Program-made: the position numbers and the translations under genes
Notes under the pieces: model-generated
Told to the model about the DNA's origin: nothing
Seen by the model: the letters and a program-made list of their open reading frames with translations, nothing else
Databases searched by the model: none
Part shown: piece after piece, positions 18,291 to 57,327 of the stretch
Layout: each line of letters opens with the position of its first letter
Numbering within the stretch: the first letter of the stretch is position 1
From: an uncultured bacterium
Lineage (GTDB): Bacteria; Bacteroidota; Ignavibacteria; OLB7
NCBI GenBank assembly: GCA_966128725.1
Contig: CBHYLN010000006.1
Span: 6,236 to 70,235, forward strand
Length of the DNA: 64,000 nt
Direction of reading: 5' to 3'

Positions 18291-18325
18291 GCTAATAGGA
18301 AGTATGTCAGCGGCGGCTGTTGCGG

Positions 18326-20371: not shown

Positions 20372-20451
20372 ATCGGGCAAACATCCGAAAGCGGCACGGT
20401 TCGCCCAAGGAGAATGATTGTTGCGATTGGTGCCGGAGGCCCGGCAGCCTG

Positions 20452-23088: not shown

Positions 23089-23218
23089 GGATATTCAGGC
23101 ATCAGAGTGGGACGAACAGGCATGCGCAAGCACCCGAGCAACGGCGGAACCGACCACGGGAATGCGCAAACGCGGGAGCCGCATGCCATTGATGCCGGCA
23201 TGCAGCATGGCCGGCGAC

Positions 23219-24172: not shown

Positions 24173-24190
24173 GGACGGAACTGTCAGGCG

Positions 24191-24682: not shown

Positions 24683-24754
24683 GTCGGTCCCCTTGCCGAT
24701 TGGTTTCAGGATATATGGTCAGCAACTTTTTAATAGCCGTTGATGGTCACGAGG

Positions 24755-25555: not shown

Positions 25556-25586
25556 GGCTTCGTTGAGTGTGGGCCGCACGGAACGA

Positions 25587-26906: not shown

Positions 26907-26927
26907 TGCAAACGTGCGCGGCGCGCG

Positions 26928-43802: not shown

Positions 43803-44885
43803 TTGGTAGAGACTGTTCCTATGGCAGACCCAATGAAGGAAGCGCGCCAGCGTGCGATCACCAATGCGGTGGATCAGATCGAAAAGCAGTTTGGCAAGGG
43901 GGCGATCATGCGCCTGAGCGACTCGGCCGTGGTGCCGGTCGAGGCCATTTCCACGGGGTCGCTCTCATTGGATGCGGCCATCGGAATCGGCGGCATCCCC
44001 CGCGGTCGTATCACGGAGATCTACGGTCCGGAATCGTCGGGCAAGACCACGGTGTGCCTTCACGTGATCGCCGAGGCGCAGAAGCGTGGCGGCGTGGCGG
44101 CATTCGTTGATGCCGAACACGCGTTGGATATCAACTACGCGGCACGCCTGGGCGTGGACGTCAACAACCTGCTGCTGGCACAGCCCGAGTTCGGCGAGCA
44201 GGCGCTGGAGATCGTGGAGACGCTTGTGCGCTCCGGGGCGATCGACGTGGTTGTGATCGACTCGGTTGCCGCGCTTACGCCGCGCGTGGAAATCGAGGGC
44301 GAGATGGGCGACGCGCAGATGGGATCGCAGGCGCGCCTGATGTCGCAGGCGATGCGGAAGCTGAACGCCGCGATTGGCCGCAGCAACGCCATCGTGCTGT
44401 TCACCAACCAGCTTCGTTCCAAGATCGGTGTGATCTACGGCAACCCCGAGACCACAACCGGCGGCAACGCGCTGAAGTTCTACGCGTCGGTCCGCATCGA
44501 CATTCGCCGCAAGGAAGTGCTGAAGGACGGGCAGGAGATTGTCGGAAACCGCGTTCGCGCGAAGATCGTGAAGAACAAGGTGGCGCCTCCGTTCCGCGAG
44601 GTTGAGTTCGACGTGATGTACAACGAGGGGATCTCGAAGATCGGCGACGTTATCGATATCGCGATCGAGAACAGCCTTGTGCAGAAGAGCGGCTCGTGGT
44701 TCACCTTCGGTGAGGAGCGCGTGCAGGGTCGCGACCAGCTTAAGAAGCTGTTTCAGGACCAGCCCGAAACCTTCGCCTCGTTGGAATCACTGGTGCGCGA
44801 ACGGCTTGGCATCCGCGACCCGCAGCCACTGTCGGACATGCCCAACAGCGGCATCGACAATCAGAAAGGCAAGCCGTCGAAGTAA
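43803..44885 (+). CDS. recA: recombinase RecA
   Basis: Walker [11 protein letters not shown]1/L2 loops, [11 protein letters not shown]. 360 aa. Confidence 0.9.
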
Positions 44886-45470: not shown

Positions 45471-46733
45471 ATGAAGAAGCGCACGCTCTCGACCAACAGC
45501 AGCCGACGTTCGGCTTTGAAAACTCTCGGCATGGCCTCGGCCGCAACGCTTACCGCGCCGTTCCTCACGACGATGTCCGGCTCGGTTGGTTCGGTTGCAA
45601 CGGCCGGTACGTTCATCGGTCGGCGCCGCGATCTCCGTTTGGCTGTGCTTATGCCCGGCACGCAGGGTGTTGGCACTGCTTCGTTTAACAACGGCATCAA
45701 CCTTGCCCTGGAAATGGCGGGCACAACGGCCGTTCGTGCGCGCGTTCACGATATCGGCGGCGGCGTCAGTTGCGCTGTACGCTTCGCGCGCGAGCAGGCG
45801 GCAAACCGCGACGCGGATGTTGCAATCGGACTGATGAGCCCACGTGTGGCACGATGGCTGGATACGGATCTGGAGCAGGCAAGGCTTCCTTTGATCGTTG
45901 CCGGCGCCGGCGAACGGGCGGTCAGCAGCGACGCGGTTTCCCCGGCGTTTGTGTACACAACCTTGCAGCTCACCAGCGCCGCCTACGCCGCTGGTGCATG
46001 GGCCGCCAATAACCTTGGCCGTTCGTGTGCGCTTGCGGCATCGTATTACGAAGCGGGATACGATATCGTGCATGCCTTCGGGGCCGGGTTCCAGGCCGCC
46101 GGTGGCACTGTGATATCCAGCTACATCAGTGGCTCACCGGTTTCAACGGTAACCGCCCACGATGTTGTGCGGGCGATCGCCGAAAGCAAGGCCGACGTTG
46201 TTGGCGCTTTCTACAACGGCGCGGAAGCAGCCGAGTTCTTTGCCCGGTATGCGTCGTACGAGAGCACCGCATACCGGCCCGTTGTTGGCAGTGCGCTGGT
46301 TTCCCCAACACAGACCTCGGGCATTCGCCTGATGAGCGGCACCACGTGGTCGGCCGCGCTCGACAACGTTGCCAACCGCGCGTTCGTTGACGCGTACACC
46401 GCACGGTTCGCGCAGGCGCCCGATTCCTTCGCGCTGCTTGGCTACGAGAGCGCGCAGCGCGCGATCGACGCCTACGATCGCGGCGGCCGCGATGGCGTGG
46501 TTGAGGCGCTTCGCTCCTCGGCATCGAATGCTCAGGTTGCGGTTGGCGCCCGTGGCATGGTTGCCGTGAACAAGGGGACAAACGAGATTTCGGCCCCGGT
46601 GTATCTCCGCCGTTTCAACAGCGACGGAACCGAGGAGATGGTCGCCGAACTTTCCACGGCCGATCAGGCACAGAAGATTGCCGCGCAGCTCCCACAGCGC
46701 AGCGGCTGGATTACTTCCTACCTCACAGTATAG
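45471..46733 (+). CDS. Tat-signal periplasmic-binding-protein-like protein (type I PBP / LivJ-like fold), orphan
   Basis: Twin-arginine motif SRRSALKTLGMASAA. ~390-aa mature domain, Ala/Gly-rich alpha/beta pattern of type I PBPs. No ABC transporter genes adjacent. Family assignment from pattern only. Confidence 0.5.
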   Translation: MKKRTLSTNSSRRSALKTLGMASAATLTAPFLTTMSGSVGSVATAGTFIGRRRDLRLAVLMPGTQGVGTASFNNGINLALEMAGTTAVRARVHDIGGGVSCAVRFAREQAANRDADVAIGLMSPRVARWLDTDLEQARLPLIVAGAGERAVSSDAVSPAFVYTTLQLTSAAYAAGAWAANNLGRSCALAASYYEAGYDIVHAFGAGFQAAGGTVISSYISGSPVSTVTAHDVVRAIAESKADVVGAFYNGAEAAEFFARYASYESTAYRPVVGSALVSPTQTSGIRLMSGTTWSAALDNVANRAFVDAYTARFAQAPDSFALLGYESAQRAIDAYDRGGRDGVVEALRSSASNAQVAVGARGMVAVNKGTNEISAPVYLRRFNSDGTEEMVAELSTADQAQKIAAQLPQRSGWITSYLTV

Positions 46734-46868
46734 GAGTCGGTTACCGCCGAGAGATGGATTCCCTTGAGGCCAGATCTCACCAACATCGGCGAACCGCGTT
46801 TCGATGGGACGGATGCACGGCATTGGGCCGTGCGAGTTCACACAACCATTTAGTTAGGAGAAGTTCAC

Positions 46869-47396
46869 ATGGCAGAACCGTTTATCGGCCAGATCATCCA
46901 GGCTGGGTTCAACTTCGCACCGCGTGGCTACGCTACGTGTGATGGACAGCTCTTGTCCATCGCGCAGAATACGGCGCTCTTCTCGCTGCTCGGCACCACA
47001 TTCGGCGGCGACGGACGTGTCACGTTCGGGCTGCCCGATCTCCGTGGCCGTGTAGCGATTCATCAGGGCCAGGGTCCGGGCCTTACCCCCCGTGTGATGG
47101 GCGAGGCAGCAGGCTCTGAAACGGTAACGCTGATCAACAGCGAAATGCCGATGCACAACCACCTGATGGCGGTCACCAATGTGTCGGGTGCGGTCGCGAC
47201 GCCAAACGGCAACTTCATCGCCGCGAGCAGCGATGCTAACGCCGTTGTCACGTTCCGTCCCACGTCCGACGGGTCCACGCTGAATCCGCAGTCAATCGGC
47301 CTGGCCGGTGGCAATCAGCCGCATAACAATATGCAGCCGTACCTCGTGATCAACTTCTGCATCGCGCTGCAGGGCATCTTCCCGTCGCGCAATTGA
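46869..47396 (+). CDS. phage tail-collar domain protein (MdpB-like), copy 1
   Basis: 175 aa. MAEPFIGQII..FNFAPRGYATCDGQLLSIAQNTALFSLLGTTFGGDG...LPDLRGR is the hallmark start of collar-only proteins. AGGAG Shine-Dalgarno 8 nt upstream. Confidence 0.8.
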   Translation: MAEPFIGQIIQAGFNFAPRGYATCDGQLLSIAQNTALFSLLGTTFGGDGRVTFGLPDLRGRVAIHQGQGPGLTPRVMGEAAGSETVTLINSEMPMHNHLMAVTNVSGAVATPNGNFIAASSDANAVVTFRPTSDGSTLNPQSIGLAGGNQPHNNMQPYLVINFCIALQGIFPSRN

Positions 47397-47450
47397 TCAT
47401 CGTTCGGTAACAAAAACTCAACGACTGATTAACCTGTAGGAGAACGATCA

Positions 47451-47978
47451 ATGGCAGAACCATTTATCGGTCAGATCATAATGACCGGGTTCAACTTCGC
47501 ACCGCGAGGCTACGCAACATGTGATGGGCAGCTCTTGTCCATTGCGCAGAACACGGCCCTTTTCTCGCTGCTGGGCACCACGTTCGGCGGCGACGGACAG
47601 GTCACGTTCGGATTGCCCGACCTGCGTGGTCGTGTCGGGATTCATCAGGGGCAGGGCCCCGGCCTGACCAATCGCACAATGGGTGAGGCTTCGGGCACTG
47701 AAACGGTAACGCTGATCAGCAGCCAGATGCCGATGCACAACCACTTGATGGCAACCACCAACGTGTCGGGTGCGCTCGGGACACCGAACGGCAACTTCAT
47801 CGCCGCAAGCAGTGCGCCAGGCACCGCGGTGATGTTCCGCCCTACGTCGGACGGATCCACGTTGAATCCGCAGTCCATCGGTTTGGCTGGCGGCAATCAA
47901 CCGCACAACAACATGCAGCCGTATCTGGTGATCAGCTTCAGCATCGCGTTGGAAGGAATCTTCCCGTCGCGCAACTAG
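47451..47978 (+). CDS. phage tail-collar domain protein (MdpB-like), copy 2
   Basis: 175 aa, ~77% identical to copy 1. Own AGGAG RBS. Confidence 0.8.
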   Translation: MAEPFIGQIIMTGFNFAPRGYATCDGQLLSIAQNTALFSLLGTTFGGDGQVTFGLPDLRGRVGIHQGQGPGLTNRTMGEASGTETVTLISSQMPMHNHLMATTNVSGALGTPNGNFIAASSAPGTAVMFRPTSDGSTLNPQSIGLAGGNQPHNNMQPYLVISFSIALEGIFPSRN

Positions 47979-48010
47979 CCGACATACAAACGCGTTTGTT
48001 GCGGAATATT

Positions 48011-48055
48011 GTGGCCGGCATACATCCAAGCGATCGTGCCGGCCACAGTTGTATT
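48011..48055 (+). terminator. putative terminator hairpin after collar gene 2
   Basis: GTGGCCGGCA-(16 nt)-TGCCGGCCAC inverted repeat followed by AGTTGTATTC. Confidence 0.4.
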
Positions 48056-48153
48056 CAACACCGGCACCATGGCCCGCTCGCTCCCATGATGATATGGCGC
48101 CGGTTCCACATAAAGCGCCCTTCATACGGCACATCCACCAAGAATACCCGTTC

Positions 48154-48660
48154 ATGCTTGCCAACTTCGGCCCGTATACGTTTCGCAGAATCGAGGAACG
48201 CGACAGCGAGTTTGTGCGCTCTCTGTTCCACATCACGCTGCGCTCGCAGATGCCATTTGAGCAGACCGGATTAAGCGATGACCAGATCGATGCCCTGCTG
48301 GATCACCAACTTGAGGCGCAGACACTGCACTACAGCTCCAACTACCCACAGGCCGAGATTTCAATCGTAGAGCACCCCGACGGCCCGGTGGCACGGTTGA
48401 TCATCATCGAGTTCGACAACGAGGTTCGGTTGGGTGATTTGATGGTGCTGCCCGAGCATCAGAACAATGGCCTGTGCTCATACATCATGGATCAGTACGT
48501 GGCGCTTGGCCTGGCTACCGGGCGCATGATCCGTCTGCACGTTGAGAAGGTGAACCGTGCGATCAACCTGTACAAGCGAAAGCACTTTGTCATCATCGAG
48601 GACCTGTCGTCGCACTGGCTTATGGAATACCAGCCCGAGAAAGCCTCACAAGCAGCATGA
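48154..48660 (+). CDS. GNAT family N-acetyltransferase
   Basis: 168 aa from the ATG at 48154. Acetyl-CoA motif A region (LMVLPEHQNNGLCSYIM) and beta-strand pattern of the GNAT fold. Confidence 0.6.
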   Translation: MLANFGPYTFRRIEERDSEFVRSLFHITLRSQMPFEQTGLSDDQIDALLDHQLEAQTLHYSSNYPQAEISIVEHPDGPVARLIIIEFDNEVRLGDLMVLPEHQNNGLCSYIMDQYVALGLATGRMIRLHVEKVNRAINLYKRKHFVIIEDLSSHWLMEYQPEKASQAA

Positions 48661-48944
48661 TTGTGGTGATGCAGGCAATTGTCGCGGAACACATGAAACC
48701 CGTTGGCAATTACCACGCCCCACGGGAAACCTGCGTGTTCGTGTGTATCCCGTGGAGCATGTTCAGCAAGGTTTTCGCAAAGGCATAATCCAGCTCCTGC
48801 TCACATCCGCCCCGTTGGTTCAGAGGTCGGCGATCCTCGCGAGCCAACCGGCGCACCCGCCCCTTCTCCCCATTCCACTCCGCTGCATCACGTGACCATG
48901 ACATCGGATGCAGCATTGCTACCCGGTTATAGGCCGCACGCGCG

Positions 48945-49319
48945 TCAGTTAAACACGGATTCGTACTGCCATCCGGTCTCACCCGGACCAACCGGTACCA
49001 CTCCCATCTGGAACTGCCCCACCTCCGGGTGATCGAACTGGTACAATCCCTGGCGTGTCAACGCCATTTCATCTCCACGAAACAAGAGAACAAATGGATC
49101 GGTACGCACATACCCTGCCTTGCCCAGGGCCCTGCCATCCATGGGCTTAAGCTGAAGGGGCTCGGCACTGATCAGCTCCAGATTCACGGTGACCCCATCC
49201 GGGCGAGTGACGACGAAGTTGGTGCCAACGTGCCGCACGAAGGTCTCGTATGTAAAGGGACTGGGGGTTGGCACAAATGCATTATCCACGGGGCATTCCT
49301 CTTGGCAAAGTTGGTCCAC
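48945..49319 (-). CDS. hypothetical small protein (124 aa), no recognised family
   Basis: ORF with noticeably lower GC than its surroundings, downstream of and co-oriented with the giant fibre-like gene. No motif recognised. Confidence 0.4.
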   Translation of the reverse strand: MDQLCQEECPVDNAFVPTPSPFTYETFVRHVGTNFVVTRPDGVTVNLELISAEPLQLKPMDGRALGKAGYVRTDPFVLLFRGDEMALTRQGLYQFDHPEVGQFQMGVVPVGPGETGWQYESVFN

Positions 49320-49380
49320 GAAATCCGGGGCAAACCCAAACTATCATGTTCACGATGATGATTGGATCCCCATTTACAAC

Positions 49381-49410
49381 AAGGGACATCCACATACGTG
49401 GATGTCCCTT
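49381..49410. promoter_or_regulatory. perfect 13-bp-stem palindrome (AAGGGACATCCAC-ATAC-GTGGATGTCCCTT)
   Basis: Lies between the giant gene stop (49455) and the small ORF start (49319). Either a U-tract-less terminator/attenuator or a dimeric-regulator operator. Confidence 0.45.
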
Positions 49411-49454
49411 GCTCGATGATCGTTCAACGATAGCCGTTAGCTGCAAGCAGCAGC

Positions 49455-52400
49455 TTACCAGCCATACCAGTTGCCGGCGCCATCGGAATACAGGCGGCGG
49501 TTACCGCCGGCATTGCCGAATGCCATGTTATTCTGGCCGTCGATCTTGTCGGTTCCATTCGGCTGAATGGTCAGAACCGGCAGAAGCGCATTGTTGTACT
49601 TCTCGATCTTGATAATCAGGATCTCACCGGCAGTTGTTGCCGGCTGCAGATTGATCGTGAAGTTCGTACCGGCCGACATATCAACACCGATGATGTCGTC
49701 GGCACCAACAACGTTGTACGACGTATTACCGGCATTTGCGATAAGCCCGGTGCGAGCAAACAGAATGGCGCCACCGCCAATCGAACCCCACTTCAACGTG
49801 GCGTTGTTGCCCGCAACCGCCTGTACCTGCAGCACCTGATCAACCCCCGTTGGGGCGGCATTCGGGAGCGTGTAGGTAAGATCGGCGGCCTGCGCCTGTG
49901 CCTTGATCGCGGTATAGTTCACACCCGAGCCACTGGGCTCAAGCAAACGCAACTCGCGGGCAGTGTTGTCGTTGTTGCCGATTGCGATGTGCGCGTTCGT
50001 TGTCGTGAACGTGCCCGCGGCGATATCCGCGCCCTGAATCGTACCGTCGGCGATCTTGGCACTGGTAACCGCACCATCGGCGATGTGTGCCGTGTTCACC
50101 GCCGAGGTAAGCAGCTTCAGGCCCGAAACGGCACTGTCGGCCAGCTTCGAGGTCGTCACCGTACCGTTGGCAACCTTCGAGGTCGTGATCGCGTTGGCCA
50201 CGATGTCAGCGTTCTGGATGCTGTTGACAAGCGACAGCTTCGAGTACACAATCGCCGCCGTCGGCGAAACATCGGCGTCAACGATCGTGCCGTCCAGGAT
50301 CTTCGCGCTCGTCACGGCATTGGCCGCGATTACCGGGTTCGGATACGTGCCGGTAAGATCACCGCCCGCCGCGCCGCTTGGCGGCAACGAGGTTGGCGCA
50401 CCGCTCAGCTTCGAGTAGCTGATGCCGTTGGCAACCTTGGCGTCGGTAACCGCACCATCGGCGATGTGCGCCGTGTTCACCGCCGAGGTAAGCAGCTTCA
50501 GGCCCGAAACGGCACTGTCGGCCAGCTTCGAGGTCGTCACCGTACCGTTGGCAACCTTCGAGGTCGTGATCGCGTTGGCCACGATGTCAGCGTTCTGGAT
50601 GCTGTTGACAAGCGACAGCTTCGAGTACGCAATCGCCGCCGTCGGCGAAACATCGGCATCAACGATCGTGCCGTCCAGGATCTTCGCGCTCGTCACGGCG
50701 TTGGCCGCGATCGTCGGGTTCGGATACGTGCCGGTGAGATCACCACCCGCGGCGCCACCCGGCGACGGGCTGCCCCACACGATGTTGGTGCCGTTGTACG
50801 TGATCGCCTGGCCCGAGGCCGCACCCGTTGGGCTCAACTTCGGAAGCGTGATCGATCCGTCGATATGATCGGCCGTAACCAGGCTGTTCGTCAGGTTCAG
50901 CTTCGAGTATGCGATCGCTGCTCCGGCCGCAACATCGGCGTTGACGATCGTGCCGTCCAGGATCTTCGCGCTCGTCACGGCGTTGGCCGCGATCGTCGGG
51001 TTCGGATACGTGCCGGTGAGATCACCACCCGCGGCGCCACCCGGCGACGGGCTGCCCCACACGATGTTGGTGCCGTTGTACGTGATCGCCTGGCCCGAGG
51101 CCGCACCCGTTGGGCTCAACTTCGGAAGCGTGATCGATCCGTCGATATGATCGGCCGTAACCAGGCTGTTCGTCAGGTTCAGCTTCGAGTATGCGATCGC
51201 TGCTCCGGCCGCAACATCGGCGTTGACGATCGTGCCGTCCAGGATCTTCGCGCTGTTGACCGAGCCGTCGACAAGGTCACCAGTGACGATGCTGTTGGCA
51301 AGCGCCAGCTTCGAGTACGCAATCGCCGCCGTCGGCGAGACGTCGGCATTGACGATCGTGCCGTCGAGAATCTTCGCGGTCGTGACCGCACCGTCGGCAA
51401 GGTCCGCCGTGACAACGGTGCCATCGGCGATCTTCGCGGTAGTGACCGAGCCATCGGCAAGGTCCGCCGTGACGATCGTGCCATCGACGATGTCGCCGCT
51501 GACAATGCTGTTGGCAAGCGCCAACTTCGAGTACGCAATCGCGGCCGCGGCGGCAACGTCGGCGTTCACAATCGTGCCGTCGAGAATCTTCGCGCTGTTG
51601 ACCGCGCCGTCGGCAAGGTCCGCCGTGGCGATCGTGCCATCGACGATGTCGCCGCTGACGATGCTGTTGGCGAGCGCCAGCTTCGAGTACGCAATCGCGG
51701 CCGCGGCGGCAACGTCAGCGTTCACAATTGTGCCGTCGAGGATCTTCGCGCTGTTTACCGCATCGTTGGCGATATCCTGCGTCTTGACCTCGCCGTCCTT
51801 GATCTTCACGGACGTGACGGAACTGTCGGCAAGGATGGACTCGGTCACCGAACCGATGGCGAGCTTGTTGGTCGTCACCGCGCCGTTGGCCAGATCGGCC
51901 GTGGCGATGGTGCCGTCGAGAATCTTGTCCGACGTAACGGCATCCGGAGCAAGCTTCGGATTGGTCACCGCGCCATTGGCCAGCTTCACCGTGTTGATCG
52001 CCGAGTCGGCAATGTATTCACGCTTGATGCCCCGTCCGGCGATCGAGAGCGACGTGGTCGGTCCGTTCGGATCGGAAACGATGATGGCATCGTCATTGCT
52101 CTGGATGGTGTTGATCGTGCCAACACTCAACGAGGTCACCGTGATCTTGCCCGTGGCATTGTTCTTGGTGATCTGGATGTTGGTACCGCCCAGAATTTCG
52201 AGATCGCCCTTCATTCCGTTCAGGCTGCTCACAACCAGACCGGGCAGCGAAGTCCAGGCAACGCCGGCGCCGGTGGAAACAAGGATCTGGCCCGCGGTGC
52301 TGCCCAGGGAGCTGAGCTTGGCCGGGGTCACCGAGCCGTCGGCAATGCTGGAAGTGCCGATCGCGCCTGGCGCAACCGCGCGCGCGGAATCGGCCATGAT

Positions 52401-52778
52401 CGCCCGCATGCTATACGGCGAACTGGTGAGCTGGACACGCGGCGTCAACTCGGTGCCGCCATCGATACCAAACCCAAGCCAATAGGTACGGTCGAACTGA
52501 ACGCTCGACGGGATACCACCCGGGGTGGATGCACCGATGATCAGGTTGTAGATGCCCTTGTTTACCGACACAGTCTGTGTCTCGGAGAACAGAGCCGTGC
52601 CACCGGTCTCTACATCGTAGAGCTTTACGGCAATGGCGTGATTGCCCTGCACGGGGTTACCACCTGCATTGGTGATATATCCCTGATAGGATATCGTGCG
52701 TGGAGCCTGGGCCCAGGCTGTTGTTGCCATCAGGAGTCCGGCAACCGCAACGCCGAAATACCTACGTGGATGCTTCAT
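49455..52778 (-). CDS. large secreted tail-fibre-like repeat protein (putative surface fibre/adhesin)
   Basis: 1107 aa from the ATG at 52776-52778 (MKHPRRYFGVAVAGLLMATTAWAQA signal peptide). N-terminal ISYQGYITNAGGNPVQG...LYDVETGGTALFSETQTVSVNKGIYNLIIG domain, then ~800 aa of DGTI[VA].AD.A.GAVT.AKI fibre-type repeats. ~180-aa C-terminal non-repeat domain ending GNWYGW. Confidence 0.7.
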   Translation of the reverse strand: MKHPRRYFGVAVAGLLMATTAWAQAPRTISYQGYITNAGGNPVQGNHAIAVKLYDVETGGTALFSETQTVSVNKGIYNLIIGASTPGGIPSSVQFDRTYWLGFGIDGGTELTPRVQLTSSPYSMRAIMADSARAVAPGAIGTSSIADGSVTPAKLSSLGSTAGQILVSTGAGVAWTSLPGLVVSSLNGMKGDLEILGGTNIQITKNNATGKITVTSLSVGTINTIQSNDDAIIVSDPNGPTTSLSIAGRGIKREYIADSAINTVKLANGAVTNPKLAPDAVTSDKILDGTIATADLANGAVTTNKLAIGSVTESILADSSVTSVKIKDGEVKTQDIANDAVNSAKILDGTIVNADVAAAAAIAYSKLALANSIVSGDIVDGTIATADLADGAVNSAKILDGTIVNADVAAAAAIAYSKLALANSIVSGDIVDGTIVTADLADGSVTTAKIADGTVVTADLADGAVTTAKILDGTIVNADVSPTAAIAYSKLALANSIVTGDLVDGSVNSAKILDGTIVNADVAAGAAIAYSKLNLTNSLVTADHIDGSITLPKLSPTGAASGQAITYNGTNIVWGSPSPGGAAGGDLTGTYPNPTIAANAVTSAKILDGTIVNADVAAGAAIAYSKLNLTNSLVTADHIDGSITLPKLSPTGAASGQAITYNGTNIVWGSPSPGGAAGGDLTGTYPNPTIAANAVTSAKILDGTIVDADVSPTAAIAYSKLSLVNSIQNADIVANAITTSKVANGTVTTSKLADSAVSGLKLLTSAVNTAHIADGAVTDAKVANGISYSKLSGAPTSLPPSGAAGGDLTGTYPNPVIAANAVTSAKILDGTIVDADVSPTAAIVYSKLSLVNSIQNADIVANAITTSKVANGTVTTSKLADSAVSGLKLLTSAVNTAHIADGAVTSAKIADGTIQGADIAAGTFTTTNAHIAIGNNDNTARELRLLEPSGSGVNYTAIKAQAQAADLTYTLPNAAPTGVDQVLQVQAVAGNNATLKWGSIGGGAILFARTGLIANAGNTSYNVVGADDIIGVDMSAGTNFTINLQPATTAGEILIIKIEKYNNALLPVLTIQPNGTDKIDGQNNMAFGNAGGNRRLYSDGAGNWYGW
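50685..51248. repeat. intragenic perfect tandem duplication, 2 x 282 bp (94 aa x 2)
   Basis: Track residues 517-610 and 611-704 of the giant protein are identical (AKILDGTIVNADVAAGAAIAYSKLNLTNSLVTADHIDGSITLPKL...TIAANAVTS). A 2 x 153-bp repeat lies further 5' and a near-perfect 2 x 381-bp repeat at ~50022-50684. Confidence 0.8.
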
Positions 52779-52804
52779 GGAGATCCCTCTCGTCATTGTG
52801 AGTA

Positions 52805-52832
52805 GATTCTACAGTTCAAACGTTGTCAGCAA
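52805..52832 (-). promoter_or_regulatory. candidate sigma-70-like promoter of the giant gene
   Basis: On the minus strand, TTGCTG-(15 nt)-TAGAAT ~45 nt upstream of the start, with AGAGGGA RBS. The 290-bp upstream gap is AT-richer. Confidence 0.35.
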
Positions 52833-53085
52833 ATCTTGTGGGGAGGGGGGATGAACCAGCTCGCCTCCATTGGGGAAAAGGAGCGGACCTCCGGCCAAAG
52901 GCCACAGAGTTTACGAAGGGTTCATGCCAAGCCGGCCATGTTGGGCGCGGTTCAACGAAGCTCAAACATACGGAATTCATTTTAAACAAAAACCAAATGC
53001 CAAGCCCGGAAGGTTGAGGCCTGCATACCCGCCAACGTAGACACAGGCGCGCGCGCAGCGGCATGCCGACAGCAGAAACCATATG

Positions 53086-55485
53086 TTACTTGGCCGGTCC
53101 GTCGTCGAACACGATTCCGTTGCCCTTTACAACCGGCGTCCCGGGTACAACGCGTGGCTCGGTAACGTAATCGGCGCCGCTGCCGCGATCGATCAACAGC
53201 CCGATCGAACCGGAGCCTCGTACACGGTTTGCGTTGCCACCGCCCTGGCTGAGCGCCGAATCGCTCAGCTTGGCGTAATACATATCGTCGCCCGCCGCAT
53301 CCAGAAGCCACGCGAACGACACGGTCAACGCCGAACCCTGGCTACTGTTGGAGCCCCGATACGTGTCGTTGCCCGATGCGTCCTCAAGGCAGCCGGCCGA
53401 CCAGTCGTGCGCGTTCCCCTGCTCCAGCCCCGCGTAGGCATCATACATATCGTCGCCGGCATCGTCGAGCAACGCCCCGAACGACAGGTGAATCCCACTT
53501 CCCTGCGAATACTGACCGGCCGTGTACCGATCGGCACCGGCGCCATCGTGCAATATGCCGAGCGCATACCAGTAGCTGCCGCCCTGGCTGAAGTAGTCCG
53601 AAGCGTACACATCGTCGCCGGTACGATCGGTAAGCACGCCAATGCCTCCGTCGGTCCCGATACCGGTGCCCCACGGACGCATGCCGAAACCGAAGCCCTG
53701 CGACATCGCCAGATACGCCCGGTTCGGATACCGCGAGTCGGGAATCTTCCACCCTGCCCTGTAGGCATCATTCCCCTCGAACTCCAGAATGGCGCCAAAG
53801 CCCCGGGCATAACCAAATCCCTGCGAATACACCTGTGAGGTATACTGGTCGTCGCCGGCGCGATCACACAACAGACCGATCCCCAGGAACGCCGCCCCCT
53901 GCGAACACCAGCGGGCATCGTAGACATCGTTGCCGGCATGATCTACCAATACACCAACGCCGAGAAGCCCGGCGCCCTGCGAGAAGTGACCGGCACGATA
54001 GGTGTCGTCGCCGGCAAGATCGAACAGAACATCCACGGCCCCCAGGCCCGCGGCCTGCCCTGTTGCGGTGGTGTTGTAGAAGTCGTTGCCGGCAACATCG
54101 CCAACATAACGGAAGCCGCCCATGCCAACCGGCGGAAGCTGGTACAGGTCATCGCCGCCAACATCGATGATCACGGCGAAGTCACCGGTATAACGATTAT
54201 GCCCCGGGCCGCCGATCACGATTCTCCCAAAGGGTGTAGATGTCACCTGCAACACCGTGCCTTCCACGCCGGGGACCGCAACGGGCACCGACGATCGGAT
54301 TGGCGGAAGTGAGCGCACGAACGCAACCAACCACGACGAATCCGCAAGCCCGGCCAGCAGTGCCCCGGCCTGGAACAGCGAGATGCGGTCCAGGCCATCG
54401 GCGGCACCCAGTAACGCAGCCATCCGCTTCTCCTCGGCAATACGAAGCTCGCGGTGGCGCACGGGGTCCTTCACGGTATCCAGCCCGGCCTCCCAGTTGC
54501 TGTCGATATCAAGCAAACCGCTCAGGCCCCGCACCAACGAGTCAAGCGGGTACCGGATCGCACGAAACGCCTCGTGCAGTTCGTTGGCCACAGCCGTGCA
54601 ACGGTTGCGCAGCGTGGACATCGAGGCGGGCAGAATCGGTTCGGGCGCCACTGTTGGCAGCGAGACATCAAGCCCGGAAGCGGCGGTGGCCACGGCGCCG
54701 GCAATACCGTTGCGTTCTACGGAGCCCCAGATATCGGTGCAGACCTGGCGCGCAAACGCGCCGATGCGTGTGGGGTTATGATGCAGATAGGTGACGGCGT
54801 TCAACCGCCATGGGCTGCGCCGCTGCGTAAACGGTACGGTGCAGAAATCCTGATCGGCGACTACACACATCTGCTTCTGAATTGTCCGGGCACGCTCTGT
54901 CAGATTGGTTTGCTCCAGCGTCCGGGCAAGCCAGCTTTGCTCCACAACCGGCCCCAGCCCGGCCGGAGCCGGCGGCACCGGCATTGGCGCTCGTTCGGGC
55001 GCACGCACCGGCACCATCAGATCGCGGGCAACACCGGCGCGAACAATCCGGAATCGAGCGGTGTCCCCGGGCGACATCCCGCGCACGGTCATGTTCAGAT
55101 AGTCATCGTACTGATAGACGGTATCACCGATTGGGTGGCCGTTGAGCGAAACAATCAGGTCCCCGATCAACATGCCGCCATCGTCGGCAAGCCAGTGTGG
55201 CATCACGTGCCACACACGCACGGGCCGCTCCCCTGCCTGCACGCCCGGAATCAGCGCCATGCTGTCGTCGGGGATCGCGTTGACATACACACCAAGGCGC
55301 GGGCGCAGCGGATCGGGCTGCCCGCCCCACACGAACGGTGGTAGATCGAACATCGACAGGCTGACGCGCATAAGGCTGTCGGCCCGTTGACGATTGTACT
55401 GCGCTGCAAGCGGGCGCGCAGCGGCAAGATGAAGCAGCACAAACGCGAGAACGGCAACGAGGAAGCAACGAGCTGTGATTCGCAT
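53086..55485 (-). CDS. secreted PDZ-domain protein with C-terminal Gly/Asp/Tyr-rich ~23-aa repeats (predicted beta-helix/beta-roll), unknown family
   Basis: 799 aa from the ATG at 55483-55485 (signal peptide MRITARCFLVAVLAFVLLHLAAARPLAAQ). PDZ-like segment (GMLIGDLIVSLNGHPIGD), helical middle, then ~12 units of pattern h..D.AG[ND]D.Y.......SQG.G..G. Confidence 0.55.
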   Translation of the reverse strand: MRITARCFLVAVLAFVLLHLAAARPLAAQYNRQRADSLMRVSLSMFDLPPFVWGGQPDPLRPRLGVYVNAIPDDSMALIPGVQAGERPVRVWHVMPHWLADDGGMLIGDLIVSLNGHPIGDTVYQYDDYLNMTVRGMSPGDTARFRIVRAGVARDLMVPVRAPERAPMPVPPAPAGLGPVVEQSWLARTLEQTNLTERARTIQKQMCVVADQDFCTVPFTQRRSPWRLNAVTYLHHNPTRIGAFARQVCTDIWGSVERNGIAGAVATAASGLDVSLPTVAPEPILPASMSTLRNRCTAVANELHEAFRAIRYPLDSLVRGLSGLLDIDSNWEAGLDTVKDPVRHRELRIAEEKRMAALLGAADGLDRISLFQAGALLAGLADSSWLVAFVRSLPPIRSSVPVAVPGVEGTVLQVTSTPFGRIVIGGPGHNRYTGDFAVIIDVGGDDLYQLPPVGMGGFRYVGDVAGNDFYNTTATGQAAGLGAVDVLFDLAGDDTYRAGHFSQGAGLLGVGVLVDHAGNDVYDARWCSQGAAFLGIGLLCDRAGDDQYTSQVYSQGFGYARGFGAILEFEGNDAYRAGWKIPDSRYPNRAYLAMSQGFGFGMRPWGTGIGTDGGIGVLTDRTGDDVYASDYFSQGGSYWYALGILHDGAGADRYTAGQYSQGSGIHLSFGALLDDAGDDMYDAYAGLEQGNAHDWSAGCLEDASGNDTYRGSNSSQGSALTVSFAWLLDAAGDDMYYAKLSDSALSQGGGNANRVRGSGSIGLLIDRGSGADYVTEPRVVPGTPVVKGNGIVFDDGPAK

Positions 55486-55805
55486 GGCGCTGTTGAACGA
55501 GAGAGAGAGAGGATTTCCGTGAACGGGAAGAATCCGCGAAGCTACAATACTTACCGCCGATGCCCTAACAGGCTGCCAGCGACTATTGCTGATCAGTCCG
55601 GGGGGACCTGAGCGGCGGTTCAACAGACGACAGGAGTGTTGCGAGGGATGGCTATGATGAACGTGGAGAGGAGGTGATAACGTGGATCAGAATCGGATGC
55701 ACGGCACACCCGACGCTGGATCACATCCGCGCCCGGATCGCGCTTGCCAGTCCTTACCGGCCGAGCGCGTATCCAGGCTGCCGACGGTGCGCGGCTGACC
55801 GCGCA

Positions 55806-56169: not shown

Positions 56170-57123
56170 TCAGAAACTGGCATTCACGGTAACACGGTGG
56201 TTGCCGCCCAGGCGGTCGAGACTGTTGAACGCATAATCGAATCGATATCCCTTCACAGCCACACCCAGCCCAGCCGAAAAACCGGCCAATCCCTTCGATT
56301 GCCCAAACGCCACATCCTGGCGCACCCGGTTATTATAGCCAACGCGCACACGCAGCGGCTTGGAGAGTGTGAACTCGCCACCAACACTGAAGGAGCTGAA
56401 CCGGGAAAGGAAGTCATCGGTTTCGTCCAACAGCCGGCTGAAATTCACGGCAACCAACAGCGGAAGCCCGCGCAACTGGTGCGAGGCGCCGATCTTCAGA
56501 TCCAGCGGCAGGCGTTCGTTGTCCGCACCGAAGGAGGAGACCTGCGAGCCGAGGTTCAGCAGCGCAAGGCCCGCCTGCACGCGATTGGCGGTATCCATGT
56601 AGTGCAGGCCGCCATCCAGCGCCAACGCGGCCGAGCCGTAGCTGTCGATCGTTGAGAATATCGCCTTGCCGTTGATGCCAGCGGCAAATCCCTCGCCAAG
56701 CTCGGTTCCCCAACCAACAACGGCCACGATGTCGTTCGAGCCGAAGGTGCCGTTAAGCTGGCCGGCACGATCGGTACGATCGAACGAACCGTAATTGGTA
56801 TACGAGACACCGAACCCGACCTTGCCCACGCCCTCCAACGACGTTGCAATCGTGGCCGAGCCGCTGTTGATATCCAGCAGATGCTTGAAGAAGGTGAACG
56901 ACGCCTGCGTGGAATCCACGGAGTTGAGCGTCGCCGGATTGTAGTACATGCCCGACGGATCGTTGGCGATCGTAACGAACGCCCCACCCATGCCAGCGGC
57001 ACGCGCGGAGACGTCGTTGTGCAGAAAATCGTATACGTATACGGCCTGCGCGCGCGCCTGCACCGCCGAGACGCATGCCACGATCGCGATTGCCAGAACG
57101 ATCCGCGAAGGAGTCAGGAACAT
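56170..57123 (-). CDS. PorV/PorQ-family (T9SS-associated) outer-membrane beta-barrel protein
   Basis: 318 aa from the ATG at 57121-57123. Signal peptide, then DVSARAAGMGGAFVTIANDPSGMYYNPATL motif shared by PorV/PorQ-type FadL-like barrels. C-terminal aromatic residue. Confidence 0.55.
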   Translation of the reverse strand: MFLTPSRIVLAIAIVACVSAVQARAQAVYVYDFLHNDVSARAAGMGGAFVTIANDPSGMYYNPATLNSVDSTQASFTFFKHLLDINSGSATIATSLEGVGKVGFGVSYTNYGSFDRTDRAGQLNGTFGSNDIVAVVGWGTELGEGFAAGINGKAIFSTIDSYGSAALALDGGLHYMDTANRVQAGLALLNLGSQVSSFGADNERLPLDLKIGASHQLRGLPLLVAVNFSRLLDETDDFLSRFSSFSVGGEFTLSKPLRVRVGYNNRVRQDVAFGQSKGLAGFSAGLGVAVKGYRFDYAFNSLDRLGGNHRVTVNASF

Positions 57124-57327
57124 CAGGTATTGTCCAGAAGATTGCCGCCATGGGTTACGCCCCATCGCACCAAGGTATGCCGCCGAATCGAATCGGCAAT
57201 GAACGGCCGTCAATAAGCGGAGAGCCGCCAACATTTGCAAGGCCAACATGCGCCGCACTCCGGCGTCCTGAAATCGCCGGATGCCCGGGCGCGACAGCAC
57301 GATCGGCTTGCCCTGAAAGGCCGCCAA

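What the first reader, a model, noticed from the sequence alone, without database searches (positions are those of the whole stretch)
45471..53086. Candidate cell-encoded fibre/collar module: tandem tail-collar-only paralogs + GNAT + orphan + giant tail-fibre-like protein, with no phage structural genes
After recA the sequence changes character: long lower-GC spacers, strong AGGAG ribosome-binding sites and hairpins. The genes are two 175-aa paralogs made only of a T4 gp12-type tail-collar domain (MdpB/'microcystin-dependent protein' family), a GNAT acetyltransferase and a 124-aa orphan. The last is a 1107-aa signal-peptide protein whose N-terminal domain and DGTI..AD.ADGAVT.AKI repeats match bacterial tail-fibre-like surface proteins. 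Collar-only proteins have no established function. No capsid, terminase, sheath, tube, baseplate, tape-measure or integrase gene is in the window, so this does not look like a prophage or tailocin. Hypothesis: a surface fibre plus collar/tip proteins acting as a receptor-binding or lectin-like module (adhesin or contact-dependent system), with the GNAT a possible modifier. A PorV/PorQ-like gene lies 3 kb away, so the T9SS is one possible export route.
Basis: partly seen in the sequence, partly recalled or inferred. Interest (0 to 1): 0.75.

Follow-up and report, generated by a model that had tools for sequence, protein, structure and literature searches.

The report
Phage-free fibre-plus-collar gene cassette
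A bacterium of the Kapaibacteria group carries a small phage-free set of genes built from phage tail-fibre parts (a long secreted fibre, two short 'collar' head proteins, an acetyltransferase, a small barrel protein and an exported binding protein); the same set recurs in unrelated bacteria, so it is probably one uncharacterised cell-surface binding device.

Summary
The "124-aa orphan" is a DUF6916 protein. The interval also holds an unmentioned Tat-signal periplasmic-binding-protein gene (45471-46733). None of about 45 window ORFs scanned is a phage structural gene.

The main result concerns the last ~100 aa of the 1107-aa fibre. This "tip" recurs (33-87% identity) at the C-terminus of quite different secreted fibres, including short collagen-repeat proteins in Burkholderiales MAGs. 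In all 14 such loci on long enough contigs, collar-only genes and DUF6916 lie next door. A GNAT is detected in every locus whose contig reaches its position. This holds across changed gene order, genomic context and phylum, and two prospective tests both held.

By fold and weak profile matches, the tip resembles the T4 gp9/gp10 and CBA120 TSP4 "XD" domains, which dock other trimeric fibres in phages. The collar proteins match gp12-type heads and keep an invariant HxH motif. A wider core (collar x3, GNAT, DUF6916) occurs in Ruegeria and Aminobacter; Deinococcus has collars, binding protein and GNAT only.

Best reading: a domesticated two-part surface fibre in which collar trimers dock on the tip. 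The docking is inferred, and the collars have no export signal. T9SS export is not supported.

The parts
45471..46733 (+). Tat-signal periplasmic binding protein (Peripla_BP_6, 420 aa)
   Evidence: Pfam PF13458, E 1.4e-24. The best solved relative is 4ey3, a 'twin-arginine translocation pathway signal' substrate-binding protein. The N-terminus carries SSRRSALK. An RR motif is conserved in the orthologues of L002, L004, L006, L013, L018 and Deinococcus. No ABC permease or ATPase gene is adjacent. The gene is present in the cassette in Burkholderiales-type MAGs, L018, L021 and Deinococcus. It is absent from L008, L009, L026 and L027.
46869..47396 (+). Collar-only protein A (175 aa), equivalent to a gp12-type head without a shaft
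   Evidence: Pfam Collar 92.7 bits; weak Gp10_C hit. PHROG tail and tail-fibre families down to 5.6e-23. A collar profile hits the solved long tail fibre 8kec_A (E 2e-8, covering the HxH and QPYL motifs) and T4 gp12 (E 5e-5). HxH is invariant in 26 collars. There is no signal peptide. An AGGAG site precedes the gene.
47451..47978 (+). Collar-only protein B (175 aa), a recent paralogue of A
   Evidence: 87% identical to A. Pfam Collar 96.2 bits. The differences from A are concentrated at about residues 100-135, after the HxH motif. Copy number in orthologous cassettes varies from 1 to 3.
48154..48660 (+). GNAT acetyltransferase (168 aa from ATG 48154; the ORF opens at 48049)
   Evidence: Pfam Acetyltransf_7 and Acetyltransf_1, just above cut-off. 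Orthologues of 59-71% identity sit in type I cassettes; a second GNAT type (Acetyltransf_3-like) sits in L018, L021 and L027 and in the Alphaproteobacteria. No signal peptide.
48945..49289 (-). DUF6916 protein (114 aa from GTG 49289; the ORF opens at 49319)
49455..52778 (-). Secreted fibre protein (1107 aa): Sec signal, MAT-like N-terminal domain, tail-fibre-like beta-repeat shaft, conserved C-terminal tip
   Evidence: More than 3691 homologues, mostly from Kapaibacteria, Calditrichota and Bacteroidota, with interchangeable C-terminal domains such as Peptidase_S74, C1q and a T9SS CTD. PHROG tail-fibre families 1e-59 to 1e-25. Bdello_MAT_N E 1.7e-7, below cut-off. No T9SS CTD.
49458..49760 (-). 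C-terminal ~100-aa 'tip' domain of the fibre: the part that co-occurs with the collar cassette
52359..52778 (-). Signal peptide plus N-terminal domain of the fibre (about residues 1-140)
   Evidence: The sequence shows a Sec signal ending AWA|QA. NCBIfam Bdello_MAT_N matches residues 21-92 of the 1113-aa ORF form (about 15-86 of the 1107-aa form), E 1.7e-7, 31.2 bits against a cut-off of 60. The first 200 aa are 48-59% identical in L008, L009, L020 and L027.
50616..51761 (-). Near-identical internal tandem duplications in the shaft
   Evidence: TRF finds a 282-bp unit x2.3 at 96% identity (50616-51254) and a 156-bp unit x2.1 at 92% (51430-51761). This fits the shaft length varying among orthologues (663-1519 aa among tip-bearing homologues).

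Best explanation
The region is a chromosomal, phage-free, horizontally mobile cassette built from domesticated phage tail-fibre modules. Most likely it makes a two-part receptor-binding fibre on the cell envelope.

Proposed mechanism:
1. The 1107-aa protein is exported by Sec. It forms a trimeric fibre held to the cell by its MAT-like N-terminal domain.
2. Its distal end is a ~100-aa beta-sandwich of the T4 gp9/gp10 and CBA120 TSP4 'XD' type. In phages this domain type is a trimeric hub on which other fibres dock.
3. The two collar-only proteins are shaft-less equivalents of the gp12-type receptor-binding head (collar plus HxH metal site). They form trimers that dock on that hub and supply the binding specificity. 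Copy number (1-3) and the variable stretch after HxH tune that specificity.
4. The GNAT and DUF6916 act in the cytoplasm as maturation factors for the collars (acetylation; small beta-barrel chaperone or adaptor).
5. The Tat-signal binding protein may escort folded collar trimers across the inner membrane, or serve as a periplasmic partner.

Shown: the gene content; the homologies; the absence of phage genes; the strict co-occurrence of tip, collar and DUF6916 (with a GNAT wherever the contig reaches it) across phyla with swapped shafts; and the conserved twin-arginine motif.

Inferred: trimerisation, tip-collar docking, export of the collars, the roles of GNAT, DUF6916 and the binding protein, and an adhesive or recognition function.

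My confidence that these genes form one functional module is about 0.8. My confidence in the docking mechanism is about 0.3.
For: 1. Co-occurrence. Every fibre carrying the tip domain on a long enough contig has collar and DUF6916 genes beside it, and a GNAT is detected in every locus whose contig reaches its position. The loci are the window, JGI 3300041965, L008, L009, L019-L021, L026, L027, L002, L004, L006, L013 and L018. (In L004 the Pfam GNAT call is only 'weak', but tblastn finds 66% identity over 167 aa.)

2. Prospective test. Two look-ups made as predictions, P0034 and P0020, both held.

3. Only the tip is shared between fibre types. The shaft is a DUF5907 repeat in Kapaibacteria and an IPT-like domain plus collagen GXY repeats in Burkholderiales-type MAGs and L018.

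4. Gene order and orientation differ between lineages: convergent, co-directional, or with the fibre on either side. Flanking genes differ too: recA; def and alaS; lysS and an M23 peptidase; Band_7 and NfeD; aspS.

5. Tip and collar identities track each other across loci. L018 and L021 keep a window-like tip (74-87%) and collar (81-83%) while carrying a different GNAT, DUF6916 and binding-protein type.

7. The collars are gp12-type heads: Pfam Collar, an invariant HxH, a solved long tail fibre at E 2e-8 and gp12 at E 5e-5.

8. A twin-arginine motif is conserved in the cassette's binding proteins in seven loci from three phyla.

9. No phage genes in the window. No DUF6916 relative in INPHARED. 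No DUF6916 or tip relative in IMG/VR.

10. The same core order (collar x3, middle protein, GNAT, convergent DUF6916), next to giant secreted proteins, occurs in Ruegeria sp. TM1040 and Aminobacter. Deinococcus ficus has collar x3, a Tat binding protein and a GNAT.

11. In Acaryochloris marina, a run annotated as three collar genes, a hypothetical protein and an acetyltransferase (AM1_3686-3690, plus AM1_3684) is co-regulated in RNA-seq (PMC11633204). Homology to the window's genes was not checked.

12. Bdellovibrio MAT fibres are a precedent for cell-encoded, surface-located chimeric trimeric fibres with swappable tips (PMC10769870).
Against: - Collar A and B, the GNAT and DUF6916 have no signal peptide, whereas the fibre is a Sec substrate. 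As the sequences read, they belong in different compartments.
- The proposed Tat escort is missing from the cassette in L008, L009, L026 and L027. In Alphaproteobacteria it is replaced by a 405-494 aa protein without a signal.
- In the Alphaproteobacteria and Deinococcus the neighbouring giant proteins lack the tip domain. So the collar-GNAT(-DUF6916) core does not depend on this tip.
- RhiA, encoded in the same operon as the collar-family protein RhiB in Rhizobium, is an abundant cytoplasmic protein (PMC2275737).
- In phages the XD-type domain is N-terminal and binds the N-terminal parts of partner fibres. Here it is C-terminal, and the collars have no N-terminal extension.
- The tip model has only moderate confidence (pLDDT 69), and the sequence-profile hits are marginal (E 0.004-0.25).
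- No interaction, localisation or phenotype data exist.
Confidence: 0.4

Rival explanations
1. The collar, GNAT and DUF6916 proteins form an independent, essentially cytoplasmic system, the same uncharacterised kind as RhiB/MrpB/COG4675 operons. Its link to the fibre is regulatory or indirect, for example co-expression with envelope proteins. There is no physical docking.
For: - The collar, GNAT and DUF6916 proteins have no export signals.
- The core cassette occurs in Ruegeria and Aminobacter, and partly in Deinococcus, next to non-homologous giant proteins that lack the tip.
- In Alphaproteobacteria the middle protein also has no signal.
- RhiA, from the rhiABC operon that includes the collar-family RhiB, is used as a cytoplasmic marker (PMC2275737; PMC6969944).
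- COG4675 proteins are abundant in soil metaproteomes (PMC5579227).
Against: - The tip domain co-occurs with the cassette in 14 of 14 loci, even though the rest of the fibre is exchanged and gene order is shuffled.
- Tip and collar identities co-vary while the GNAT and DUF6916 types are swapped.
- Both parts come from the phage baseplate-fibre repertoire, whose members interact with one another.
- A secreted giant protein is a neighbour in every lineage examined.
Confidence: 0.3
2. The collar proteins, and possibly the fibre, are trans-encoded fibres for a contractile injection system or tailocin-like particle encoded elsewhere in the genome.
For: In Acaryochloris marina the annotated collar-acetyltransferase run changes expression together with genes annotated as phage tail sheath and baseplate assembly proteins (PMC11633204). 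Collar domains are typical of tail fibres.
Against: - No sheath, tube or baseplate gene lies in the 64-kb window, nor within the up to 10 kb of flank fetched in any related locus.
- The fibre and the binding protein carry Sec and Tat signals, which particle components assembled in the cytoplasm do not need.
- The A. marina co-regulation is one of many light-responsive changes.
Confidence: 0.1
3. The region is a decayed prophage or tailocin remnant with no cellular function.
For: The shaft, tip and collars are all homologous to phage tail proteins. GC content is slightly lower than in the surrounding sequence.
Against: - All reading frames are intact.
- Sequence conservation is strong: collar 70-88%, GNAT 59-71% and DUF6916 50-64% in the type I cassettes across two phyla.
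- The set is conserved in many genomic contexts with no other phage gene nearby.
- No DUF6916 relative in INPHARED, and no DUF6916 or tip relative in IMG/VR.
- Three of the conserved parts (GNAT, DUF6916, Tat binding protein) gave no PHROG hit.
Confidence: 0.03
4. The giant protein is an ordinary T9SS-exported adhesin linked to the nearby PorQ gene, and the collar genes are unrelated neighbours.
For: PorQ lies 3.4 kb away (NF033711 above cut-off). The order PorQ, PDZ protein, fibre is syntenic in Kapaibacterium MAGs. Some family members carry a T9SS CTD, PF18962.
Against: - This fibre has no CTD by Pfam or NCBIfam. Its C-terminus is the tip domain instead.
- The same tip and cassette occur in Burkholderiales-type MAGs; Betaproteobacteria are not known to carry T9SS (general knowledge, not tested here).
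- In L026 and L027 the cassette sits away from PorQ.
Confidence: 0.07

Closest known systems
Bdellovibrio bacteriovorus MAT (mosaic adhesive trimer) fibres, non-S74 subfamily (PMC10769870)
   Same: Both are cell-encoded rather than phage-encoded and carry a signal peptide. Both have a conserved N-terminal domain, a long phage-tail-fibre-like shaft and an exchangeable C-terminal tip. The window's protein gives a weak Bdello_MAT_N hit, and its homologues show many alternative tips, including Peptidase_S74.
   Different: The N-terminal match is below the NCBIfam cut-off (31 vs 60 bits). The organism is a Kapaibacteria-type bacterium, not a known predator. The MAT text read here (keyword passages only) mentions no dedicated collar, GNAT or DUF6916 partner genes. 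The tip here is a gp9/gp10-XD-like domain, not one of the tips solved for MAT proteins.
T4 baseplate gp10-gp12(-gp11) network and the CBA120 TSP4/TSP2 XD-domain branched tailspike complex
   Same: The fibre tip resembles the gp9/gp10-N and TSP4 XD beta-sandwich. The collar proteins resemble the gp12 receptor-binding end and weakly match Gp10_C. From general knowledge of these phage complexes (not tested here), XD-type domains are hubs that hold other trimeric fibres.
   Different: No phage particle is involved. The XD-like domain is at the C-terminus of a secreted fibre instead of the particle-proximal N-terminus. The collars lack the N-terminal shaft through which gp12 and the tailspikes attach. 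Homology of the tip rests on a moderate-confidence model and marginal E-values.
COG4675 / MdpB / RhiB / MrpB collar-only proteins (rhiABC of Rhizobium leguminosarum, mrpAB of Microcystis)
   Same: These are stand-alone collar-domain proteins encoded outside phages, often in tandem copies, and of unknown function (PMC6969944, PMC3328848). The window's collars are about 175 aa.
   Different: rhiABC and mrpAB are described with RhiA/MrpA and RhiC partners. They are not described with a GNAT, DUF6916, a Tat binding protein or a tip-bearing fibre. Whether RhiA or RhiC relatives exist here was not tested. Direct homology of the window's collars to RhiB rests on the shared COG and Pfam family only.
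Collagen-like surface filaments with globular C-terminal domains (for example Bacillus BclA; comparison from my own knowledge, not tested here)
   Same: The Burkholderiales-type and L018 versions of the fibre are signal-peptide proteins with GXY collagen repeats ending in a small beta-rich C-terminal domain.
   Different: The C-terminal domain is gp10-XD-like, not C1q/TNF-like. It is strictly linked to the collar, GNAT and DUF6916 genes.

Membership tests
Phage tail collar domain proteins (Pfam PF07484; COG4675-type stand-alone form) | Collar domain above the Pfam gathering score | tested here: met
   92.7 and 96.2 bits against a cut-off of 24.
Phage tail collar domain proteins (Pfam PF07484; COG4675-type stand-alone form) | Stand-alone ~175-aa protein that starts at the collar motif, with no fibre shaft | tested here: met
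   The collar domain covers residues 7-62 of 175. The rest is the head region with HxH and QPYL motifs. All 26 aligned homologues start at the same position.
T4 gp12-type short tail fibre | C-terminal receptor-binding region with collar and HxH metal-site motif | tested here: met
   A collar profile hits gp12 (1ocy, 1pdi, 5iv5) at 5e-5 to 4e-4 and the long tail fibre 8kec_A at 2e-8, including the HxH and QPYL regions. HxH is invariant. Metal binding itself was not tested.
T4 gp12-type short tail fibre | N-terminal shaft and baseplate-attachment region, encoded in a phage morphogenesis module | tested here: not met
   The proteins are 175 aa with no shaft. No phage genes are in the window.
Bdellovibrio MAT chimeric fibre family | N-terminal MAT domain at NCBIfam cut-off (NF053851) | tested here: not met
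   31.2 bits, E 1.7e-7, against a cut-off of 60; 74 of 162 profile positions are covered.
Bdellovibrio MAT chimeric fibre family | Signal peptide, long tail-fibre-like shaft and exchangeable C-terminal tip among paralogues or homologues | tested here: met
   A Sec signal is present. PHROG tail-fibre hits range from 1e-59 to 1e-25. Homologues carry alternative C-termini: S74, C1q, a T9SS CTD or the tip.
Bdellovibrio MAT chimeric fibre family | Trimeric fibre located on the cell surface | not testable with these tools
   Needs microscopy or fractionation.
gp9/gp10-N/TSP4 'XD' docking domain | Fold and sequence similarity to solved XD-type domains | tested here: inconclusive
gp9/gp10-N/TSP4 'XD' docking domain | Binds a partner trimeric fibre | not testable with these tools
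   No multimer prediction or experiment was available. There is only genomic co-occurrence with the collars.
Prophage / tailocin / contractile injection system | Capsid, terminase, portal, sheath, tube, baseplate, tape-measure or integrase genes nearby | tested here: not met
   None among about 45 window ORFs, nor in the up to 10 kb of flank of related loci. No DUF6916 relative in INPHARED; no DUF6916 or tip relative in IMG/VR.
T9SS cargo protein | C-terminal sorting domain (PF18962 / TIGR04183 type) | tested here: not met
   No such hit for the fibre in Pfam or NCBIfam. The C-terminus is the tip domain.
DUF6916 (PF21880) | Match above the Pfam gathering score | tested here: met
   73.2 bits against a cut-off of 27, covering profile positions 1-91 of 91.
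GNAT acetyltransferases | Acetyltransf domain above the Pfam gathering score | tested here: met
   28.7 vs 27 and 27.6 vs 20.7. The closest solved relative is 2i79, a GNAT-family protein, at E 3e-4. The substrate is unknown.
Tat-exported solute-binding protein (Peripla_BP_6) | Peripla_BP_6 fold plus a twin-arginine signal | tested here: met
   PF13458 at 87.8 bits. SRRSALK lies in the N-terminus, and RR is conserved in 7 orthologues. Export by Tat was not tested. No transporter genes are adjacent.
Known anti-phage defence systems (PADLOC) | Match of any cassette protein to a defence-system model | tested here: not met
   Only a repeat-region hit of the fibre to PD-Lambda-5_A (E 1e-7). Nothing for the collars, GNAT, DUF6916 or binding protein.
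rhiABC / mrpAB operons | Collar-family RhiB/MrpB together with RhiA/MrpA (and RhiC) | not tested
   Only the family-level link (COG4675 = RhiB) comes from the literature.

The most novel reading that the evidence does not exclude
The cassette is a previously undescribed, widespread bacterial 'branched fibre' system. A secreted trimeric scaffold of exchangeable type (beta-repeat or collagen) ends in a gp10/XD-like hub that captures separately encoded gp12-like collar trimers. This would retain the phage baseplate gp10-gp12 docking principle on a cell surface. The folded, signal-less collar trimers would reach the periplasm by hitch-hiking on the Tat-signal binding protein, after maturation by the GNAT and DUF6916.
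Probability: 0.2. Interest if true: 0.85.

Novelty: new variant of a known kind. Interest (0 to 1): 0.66.

Why it matters
Stand-alone collar proteins (COG4675, MdpB, RhiB, MrpB) have been known since the rhiABC work of the early 1990s. They are abundant in soil metaproteomes and still have no function. This analysis links them to fixed genomic partners:
- a GNAT and DUF6916, seen in the Kapaibacteria-type, Burkholderiales-type, Ruegeria and Aminobacter loci examined;
- and, in one lineage, the specific C-terminal domain of a secreted fibre.

That gives concrete, testable hypotheses: tip-collar docking, Tat-dependent export and acetylation. It also points to cultured organisms that carry the core cassette and could be used for experiments (Ruegeria sp. 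TM1040, Aminobacter and, for the collar/binding-protein/GNAT part, Deinococcus ficus; Acaryochloris marina by annotation only).

If the docking model holds, it would be a second example, after the Bdellovibrio MAT fibres, of bacteria reusing phage receptor-binding hardware for their own surface. It would be the first with a multi-protein, phage-baseplate-like architecture.

Tried and rejected
- Prophage or tailocin remnant. Rejected after Pfam scans of about 45 window ORFs, INPHARED tblastn with DUF6916 and IMG/VR scans with DUF6916 and tip profiles.
- T9SS cargo. Rejected because the fibre has no CTD and the cassette occurs in lineages not known to carry T9SS (general knowledge).
- Anti-phage defence system. 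PADLOC gave nothing relevant.
- Genome-wide census. The pattern-based scans recovered only 7 loci (genome contigs) and 4 loci (metagenome contigs), so they cannot give family-wide statistics. One of the 7 (L016) was a false positive: a dimethylglycine-dehydrogenase-like protein sharing the VPVGPGETG motif.
- Look-up of the window's own 73-kb contig through P0014. This failed, so sequence beyond the window edges was not inspected.
- Promoter and terminator consensus scans. Counts were no higher than in shuffled sequence.
- The first literature search on 'MdpB' returned only dental-monomer papers. Searches for DUF6916 (0 papers), COG4675 (4 papers) and 'phage tail collar' (32 papers) found no description of this cassette.
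- The Asp/Asn hydroxylase and the HExxH-like 167-aa protein seen in some related cassettes have no homologue in the window.

Full report
**1. What is in the interval**

ORF listing and family scans give the following gene order:
- recA (43803-44885, +).
- A 585-bp spacer with GC 0.54.
- A 420-aa Peripla_BP_6 protein with a twin-arginine N-terminus, SSRRSALK (45471-46733, +).
- Collar A (46869-47396, +) and collar B (47451-47978, +). They are 87% identical, and each is preceded by AGGAG.
- A GNAT (ORF 48049-48660, likely start ATG 48154, +).
- On the minus strand, convergent with the GNAT, a DUF6916 protein (48945-49289/49319).
- Upstream of DUF6916 on the same strand, a 1107-aa signal-peptide protein (49455-52778).

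Beyond this lie an 845-aa PDZ/repeat protein (53086-55623, -) and PorQ (56170-57327, -; NF033711 at 228.9 bits against a cut-off of 220).

There are two exceptions: the 'orphan' belongs to Pfam DUF6916 (E 2e-20), and the binding-protein gene, which lies inside the stated coordinates, was not mentioned. GC is modestly lower across 45-50 kb (0.56-0.61 against about 0.62-0.64). The spacers contain hairpins.

**2. Not a prophage**

About 45 ORFs across the 64-kb window were scanned against Pfam. They encode housekeeping or envelope functions:
- PspA, MatE, an amino-acid permease, RsmB, endonuclease III and cystathionine-beta-synthase-like PALP/CBS;
- a ZnuABC-type transporter, acetyl-CoA carboxyltransferase and an FG-GAP protein;
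- heparinase II/III, a polysaccharide flippase and recA;
- SCO1, DUF420 and COX1/2/3, CtaA and CtaB.

No capsid, terminase, portal, sheath, tube, baseplate, tape-measure or integrase family appears.

The source is a Kapaibacteria-type MAG. The fibre is identical to a protein on a 73-kb NCBI/ENA contig. The closest named relatives are from 'Candidatus Kapaibacterium/Kapabacteria'.

**3. The cassette recurs with the same partners**

Homologues of DUF6916 were traced to their contigs.

The nearest relative (JGI 3300041965) has the order recA, binding protein, collar x2, GNAT, DUF6916, then a 1036-aa protein.

Four Burkholderiales/Casimicrobiaceae-type MAG loci (L002/L014, L004/L015, L006/L010, L013) have one operon encoding:
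- a signal-peptide collagen-repeat protein;
- a Tat binding protein;
- one or two collars;
- a GNAT;
- a convergent DUF6916 at the end.

These loci sit among unrelated housekeeping genes.

Two Kapaibacterium-type MAGs (L008/L012, L009/L011) have the order COX genes, SCO1, DUF420, PorQ, PDZ protein, fibre, DUF6916, GNAT, collar x3, def, alaS. They have no binding-protein gene.

**4. The decisive observation**

A tblastn of the window's proteins against these loci showed one thing clearly. Only the last ~97 residues of the giant protein match the Burkholderiales-type loci (47-65% identity). They match the C-terminus of the collagen-repeat proteins (translations).

So the shaft is exchanged: DUF5907/tail-fibre-like beta repeats in one lineage, an IPT-like domain plus GXY collagen repeats in the other. 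The C-terminal 'tip' travels with the collar, GNAT and DUF6916 genes.

A third arrangement (L018, unplaced metagenome contig) puts a collagen-tip fibre convergent to the following genes:
- collar x2;
- a divergent Tat binding-protein-like gene;
- an Acetyltransf_3-type GNAT;
- a divergent DUF6916;
- an Asp/Asn hydroxylase.

A metagenome scan with the tip profile gave three more loci long enough to judge (L019-L021; L019 reaches only the edge of a collar gene). All have DUF6916, a GNAT and a collar.

I then treated the association as a prediction and looked up two further tip-bearing homologues:
- P0034: tip 85% identical, in a different genomic context.
- P0020: tip only 33% identical, at the recA locus.

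Both have DUF6916, a GNAT and two collars adjacent.

In total, 14 of 14 tip-bearing fibres on long enough contigs carry collars and DUF6916. A GNAT is detected in each locus whose contig reaches its position. (In L004 the Pfam GNAT call is only 'weak', but tblastn gives 66% identity over 167 aa.) The one uninformative case (L017/L022) is a 1.8-kb contig.

Across loci, tip and collar identities track each other. L018 and L021 combine a window-like tip and collar with a different GNAT, DUF6916 and binding-protein type. This points to the tip-collar pair as the tightest functional unit.

Cross-phylum identities are high: collar up to 83%, GNAT 71%, DUF6916 64% between Kapaibacteria and Burkholderiales-type MAGs. 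Together with the strong Shine-Dalgarno sites, this suggests horizontal transfer (inference).

**5. What the parts are**

*Collars.* The evidence is as follows:
- Pfam Collar.
- PHROG tail and tail-fibre families down to 6e-23.
- A profile of 22 collars hits a solved phage long tail fibre (8kec_A, E 2e-8, spanning the HxH and QPYL motifs) and T4 gp12 (E 5e-5).
- The HxH motif is invariant in 26 sequences. Variation is concentrated just after it.
- None has a signal peptide.

*Fibre.* It has more than 3691 homologues, many per genome, with interchangeable C-termini: Peptidase_S74, C1q, a T9SS CTD or the tip. This is the architecture described for Bdellovibrio MAT fibres (PMC10769870). The N-terminal match to Bdello_MAT_N is below the cut-off.

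*Tip.* The evidence is as follows:
- No Pfam family.
- A whole-library HMM search finds 284 cluster representatives. Part of these hits fall on the neck/shaft region that the profile also covered.
- Where the tip itself matches, it lies at the C-terminus of proteins of 100-1500 aa, or in proteins of ~110-140 aa.
- The distant short members hit phrog_20556 'baseplate protein' (1e-15 to 1e-10), the LTF proximal subunit, Phage_depo_C (1e-4) and T4_gp9_10_N (0.007).
- A 28-sequence profile hits T4 gp10 residues 70-129 (E 0.0036). Among the next hits are gp34, TSP4 and a gp9-like connector.

Each of the two routes to the tip assignment is weak. They converge on the same small set of phage proteins.

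*DUF6916.* A small split beta-barrel (pLDDT 80) with only generic structural neighbours.

*Binding protein.* Its closest solved relatives are Tat-signal aromatic-acid-type SBPs such as 4ey3. The RR motif is conserved in seven loci from three phyla. No transporter genes accompany it.

**6. A wider core**

tblastn of collar A against PLSDB found tandem triplets in cultured bacteria. The annotated regions, with local searches, show:
- Ruegeria sp. TM1040 megaplasmid and an Aminobacter plasmid: a giant secreted protein, collar x3, a 405-494 aa middle protein without a signal, a GNAT and a convergent DUF6916 (Pfam E 3e-25 and 1.5e-21).
- Deinococcus ficus pDFI2: two large hypothetical proteins, collar x3, a Tat binding protein and a GNAT.

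Their giant neighbours lack the tip domain. The three collars there are three orthologous types, whereas the Kapaibacteria copies are recent duplicates.

In Acaryochloris marina, genes AM1_3684 and AM1_3686-3690 are annotated as three collars, a hypothetical protein, an acetyltransferase and another hypothetical protein. They are co-regulated by light in RNA-seq (PMC11633204). Homology to the window's genes was not checked.

COG4675 is the RhiB/MrpB family, whose function is unknown (PMC6969944, PMC3328848). RhiA, from the same operon, is cytoplasmic (PMC2275737).

I found no paper describing the collar-GNAT-DUF6916 cassette.

**7. Interpretation**

The data establish a conserved, mobile, phage-free module.

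The mechanism I favour is that collar trimers dock on the gp10/XD-like fibre tip, as gp12 and the tailspikes dock on gp10 and TSP4 in phages. The GNAT and DUF6916 would act as cytoplasmic maturation factors, and the Tat binding protein as a possible escort.

This explains the strict tip-collar linkage, the phage ancestry of both parts and the conserved Tat signal.

It is undercut by three facts:
- The collars have no export signal.
- Some cassettes lack the binding protein.
- Tip-less cassettes exist in other phyla.

The main rival is a cytoplasmic collar-GNAT-DUF6916 system only indirectly coupled to envelope proteins. Trans-acting fibres for a particle encoded elsewhere, a prophage remnant and T9SS cargo are less likely. 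The evidence for each is given in the rival entries.

**8. Verdict**

The fibre is a new member of a known kind (MAT-like chimeric fibres). The collars belong to a known but uncharacterised family. What is new is the fixed partnership of tip, collar, GNAT and DUF6916, with or without the Tat binding protein. It makes the long-open question of what stand-alone collar proteins do directly testable.

Noticed in passing
window 25587-26906 (-), within the operon 23219-28699: An ABC-3 family permease (residues 26-286) is fused to a C-terminal Fe_dep_repr_C domain, the DtxR-type metal-binding and dimerisation domain (residues 369-437). It sits in a ZnuA / ABC ATPase / ABC-3 metal-uptake operon. This could be a transporter with a built-in metal sensor.
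   Followed up: no
window 53086-55623 (-): An 845-aa protein with a weak PDZ domain and many G-(N/D)-D-x-Y repeats lies between PorQ and the fibre gene. The order PorQ, PDZ protein, fibre is kept in two Kapaibacterium-type MAGs (57-60% identity). It is not kept in L026 or L027, where the cassette lies elsewhere.
   Followed up: partly
window 50616-51254 and 51430-51761 (fibre gene, minus strand): The shaft contains near-identical tandem duplications: 282 bp x2.3 at 96% identity and 156 bp x2.1 at 92%. They point to recent recombinational length change of the fibre.
   Followed up: partly
L002 8529-9760; L006 1159-2432; L013 8471-9897; L018 739-1266 and 6779-7567: The Burkholderiales-type and L018 cassettes carry two extra recurrent genes. 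One is an Asp/Asn beta-hydroxylase (PF05118). The other is a 167-175 aa protein with no Pfam family and an HExxH-like 'LHE(G/A)GHL' motif. The JGI relative of the window keeps only a 92-aa hydroxylase fragment, and the window has neither gene.
   Followed up: partly
L027 (GCA_964455525.1) 10001-23403: The cassette sits at the same recA locus as in the window. RecA is 83% identical, but the tip (33%), DUF6916 (34%) and GNAT (28-31%) are far more diverged, while the collars are 63-71%. Either the cassette evolves fast or a different allele has replaced it at a conserved site.
   Followed up: partly
L023, L024, L025 (Aminobacter, Deinococcus ficus, Ruegeria sp. TM1040 replicons): The three tandem collar genes fall into three types that are orthologous across these taxa (copy 1 with copy 1, and so on). 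That hints at a heterotrimer or three distinct trimers. The Kapaibacteria copies, by contrast, are recent duplicates of 85-88% identity.
   Followed up: partly
L016 9900-10430: The DUF6916 motif VPVGPGETG also occurs in the C-terminal barrel of a dimethylglycine-dehydrogenase/GcvT-like protein. This produced a false-positive locus. It may be chance, or it may reflect a shared small-barrel fold.
   Followed up: no
L008 16753-17846; L009 16358-17454: A gap of about 1.1 kb with no called gene (GC 0.59-0.60) follows the third collar gene, at the position where other cassettes have the binding-protein gene. It gives no tblastn match to the binding protein, and its content is unexplained.
   Followed up: partly
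window 46853-46868 and 47436-47450: Canonical AGGAG Shine-Dalgarno sites precede both collar genes, whereas the GNAT start has none. This fits acquisition of the collar genes from another lineage, but I did not compare it with the window's other genes.
   Followed up: no
window 20452-23088 (-) and 32739-35651 (-): Two large envelope-type proteins lie elsewhere in the window: a DUF5916/CBM9 protein (878 aa) and a 970-aa protein with nine FG-GAP repeats. Neither is linked to the cassette in related loci.
   Followed up: no
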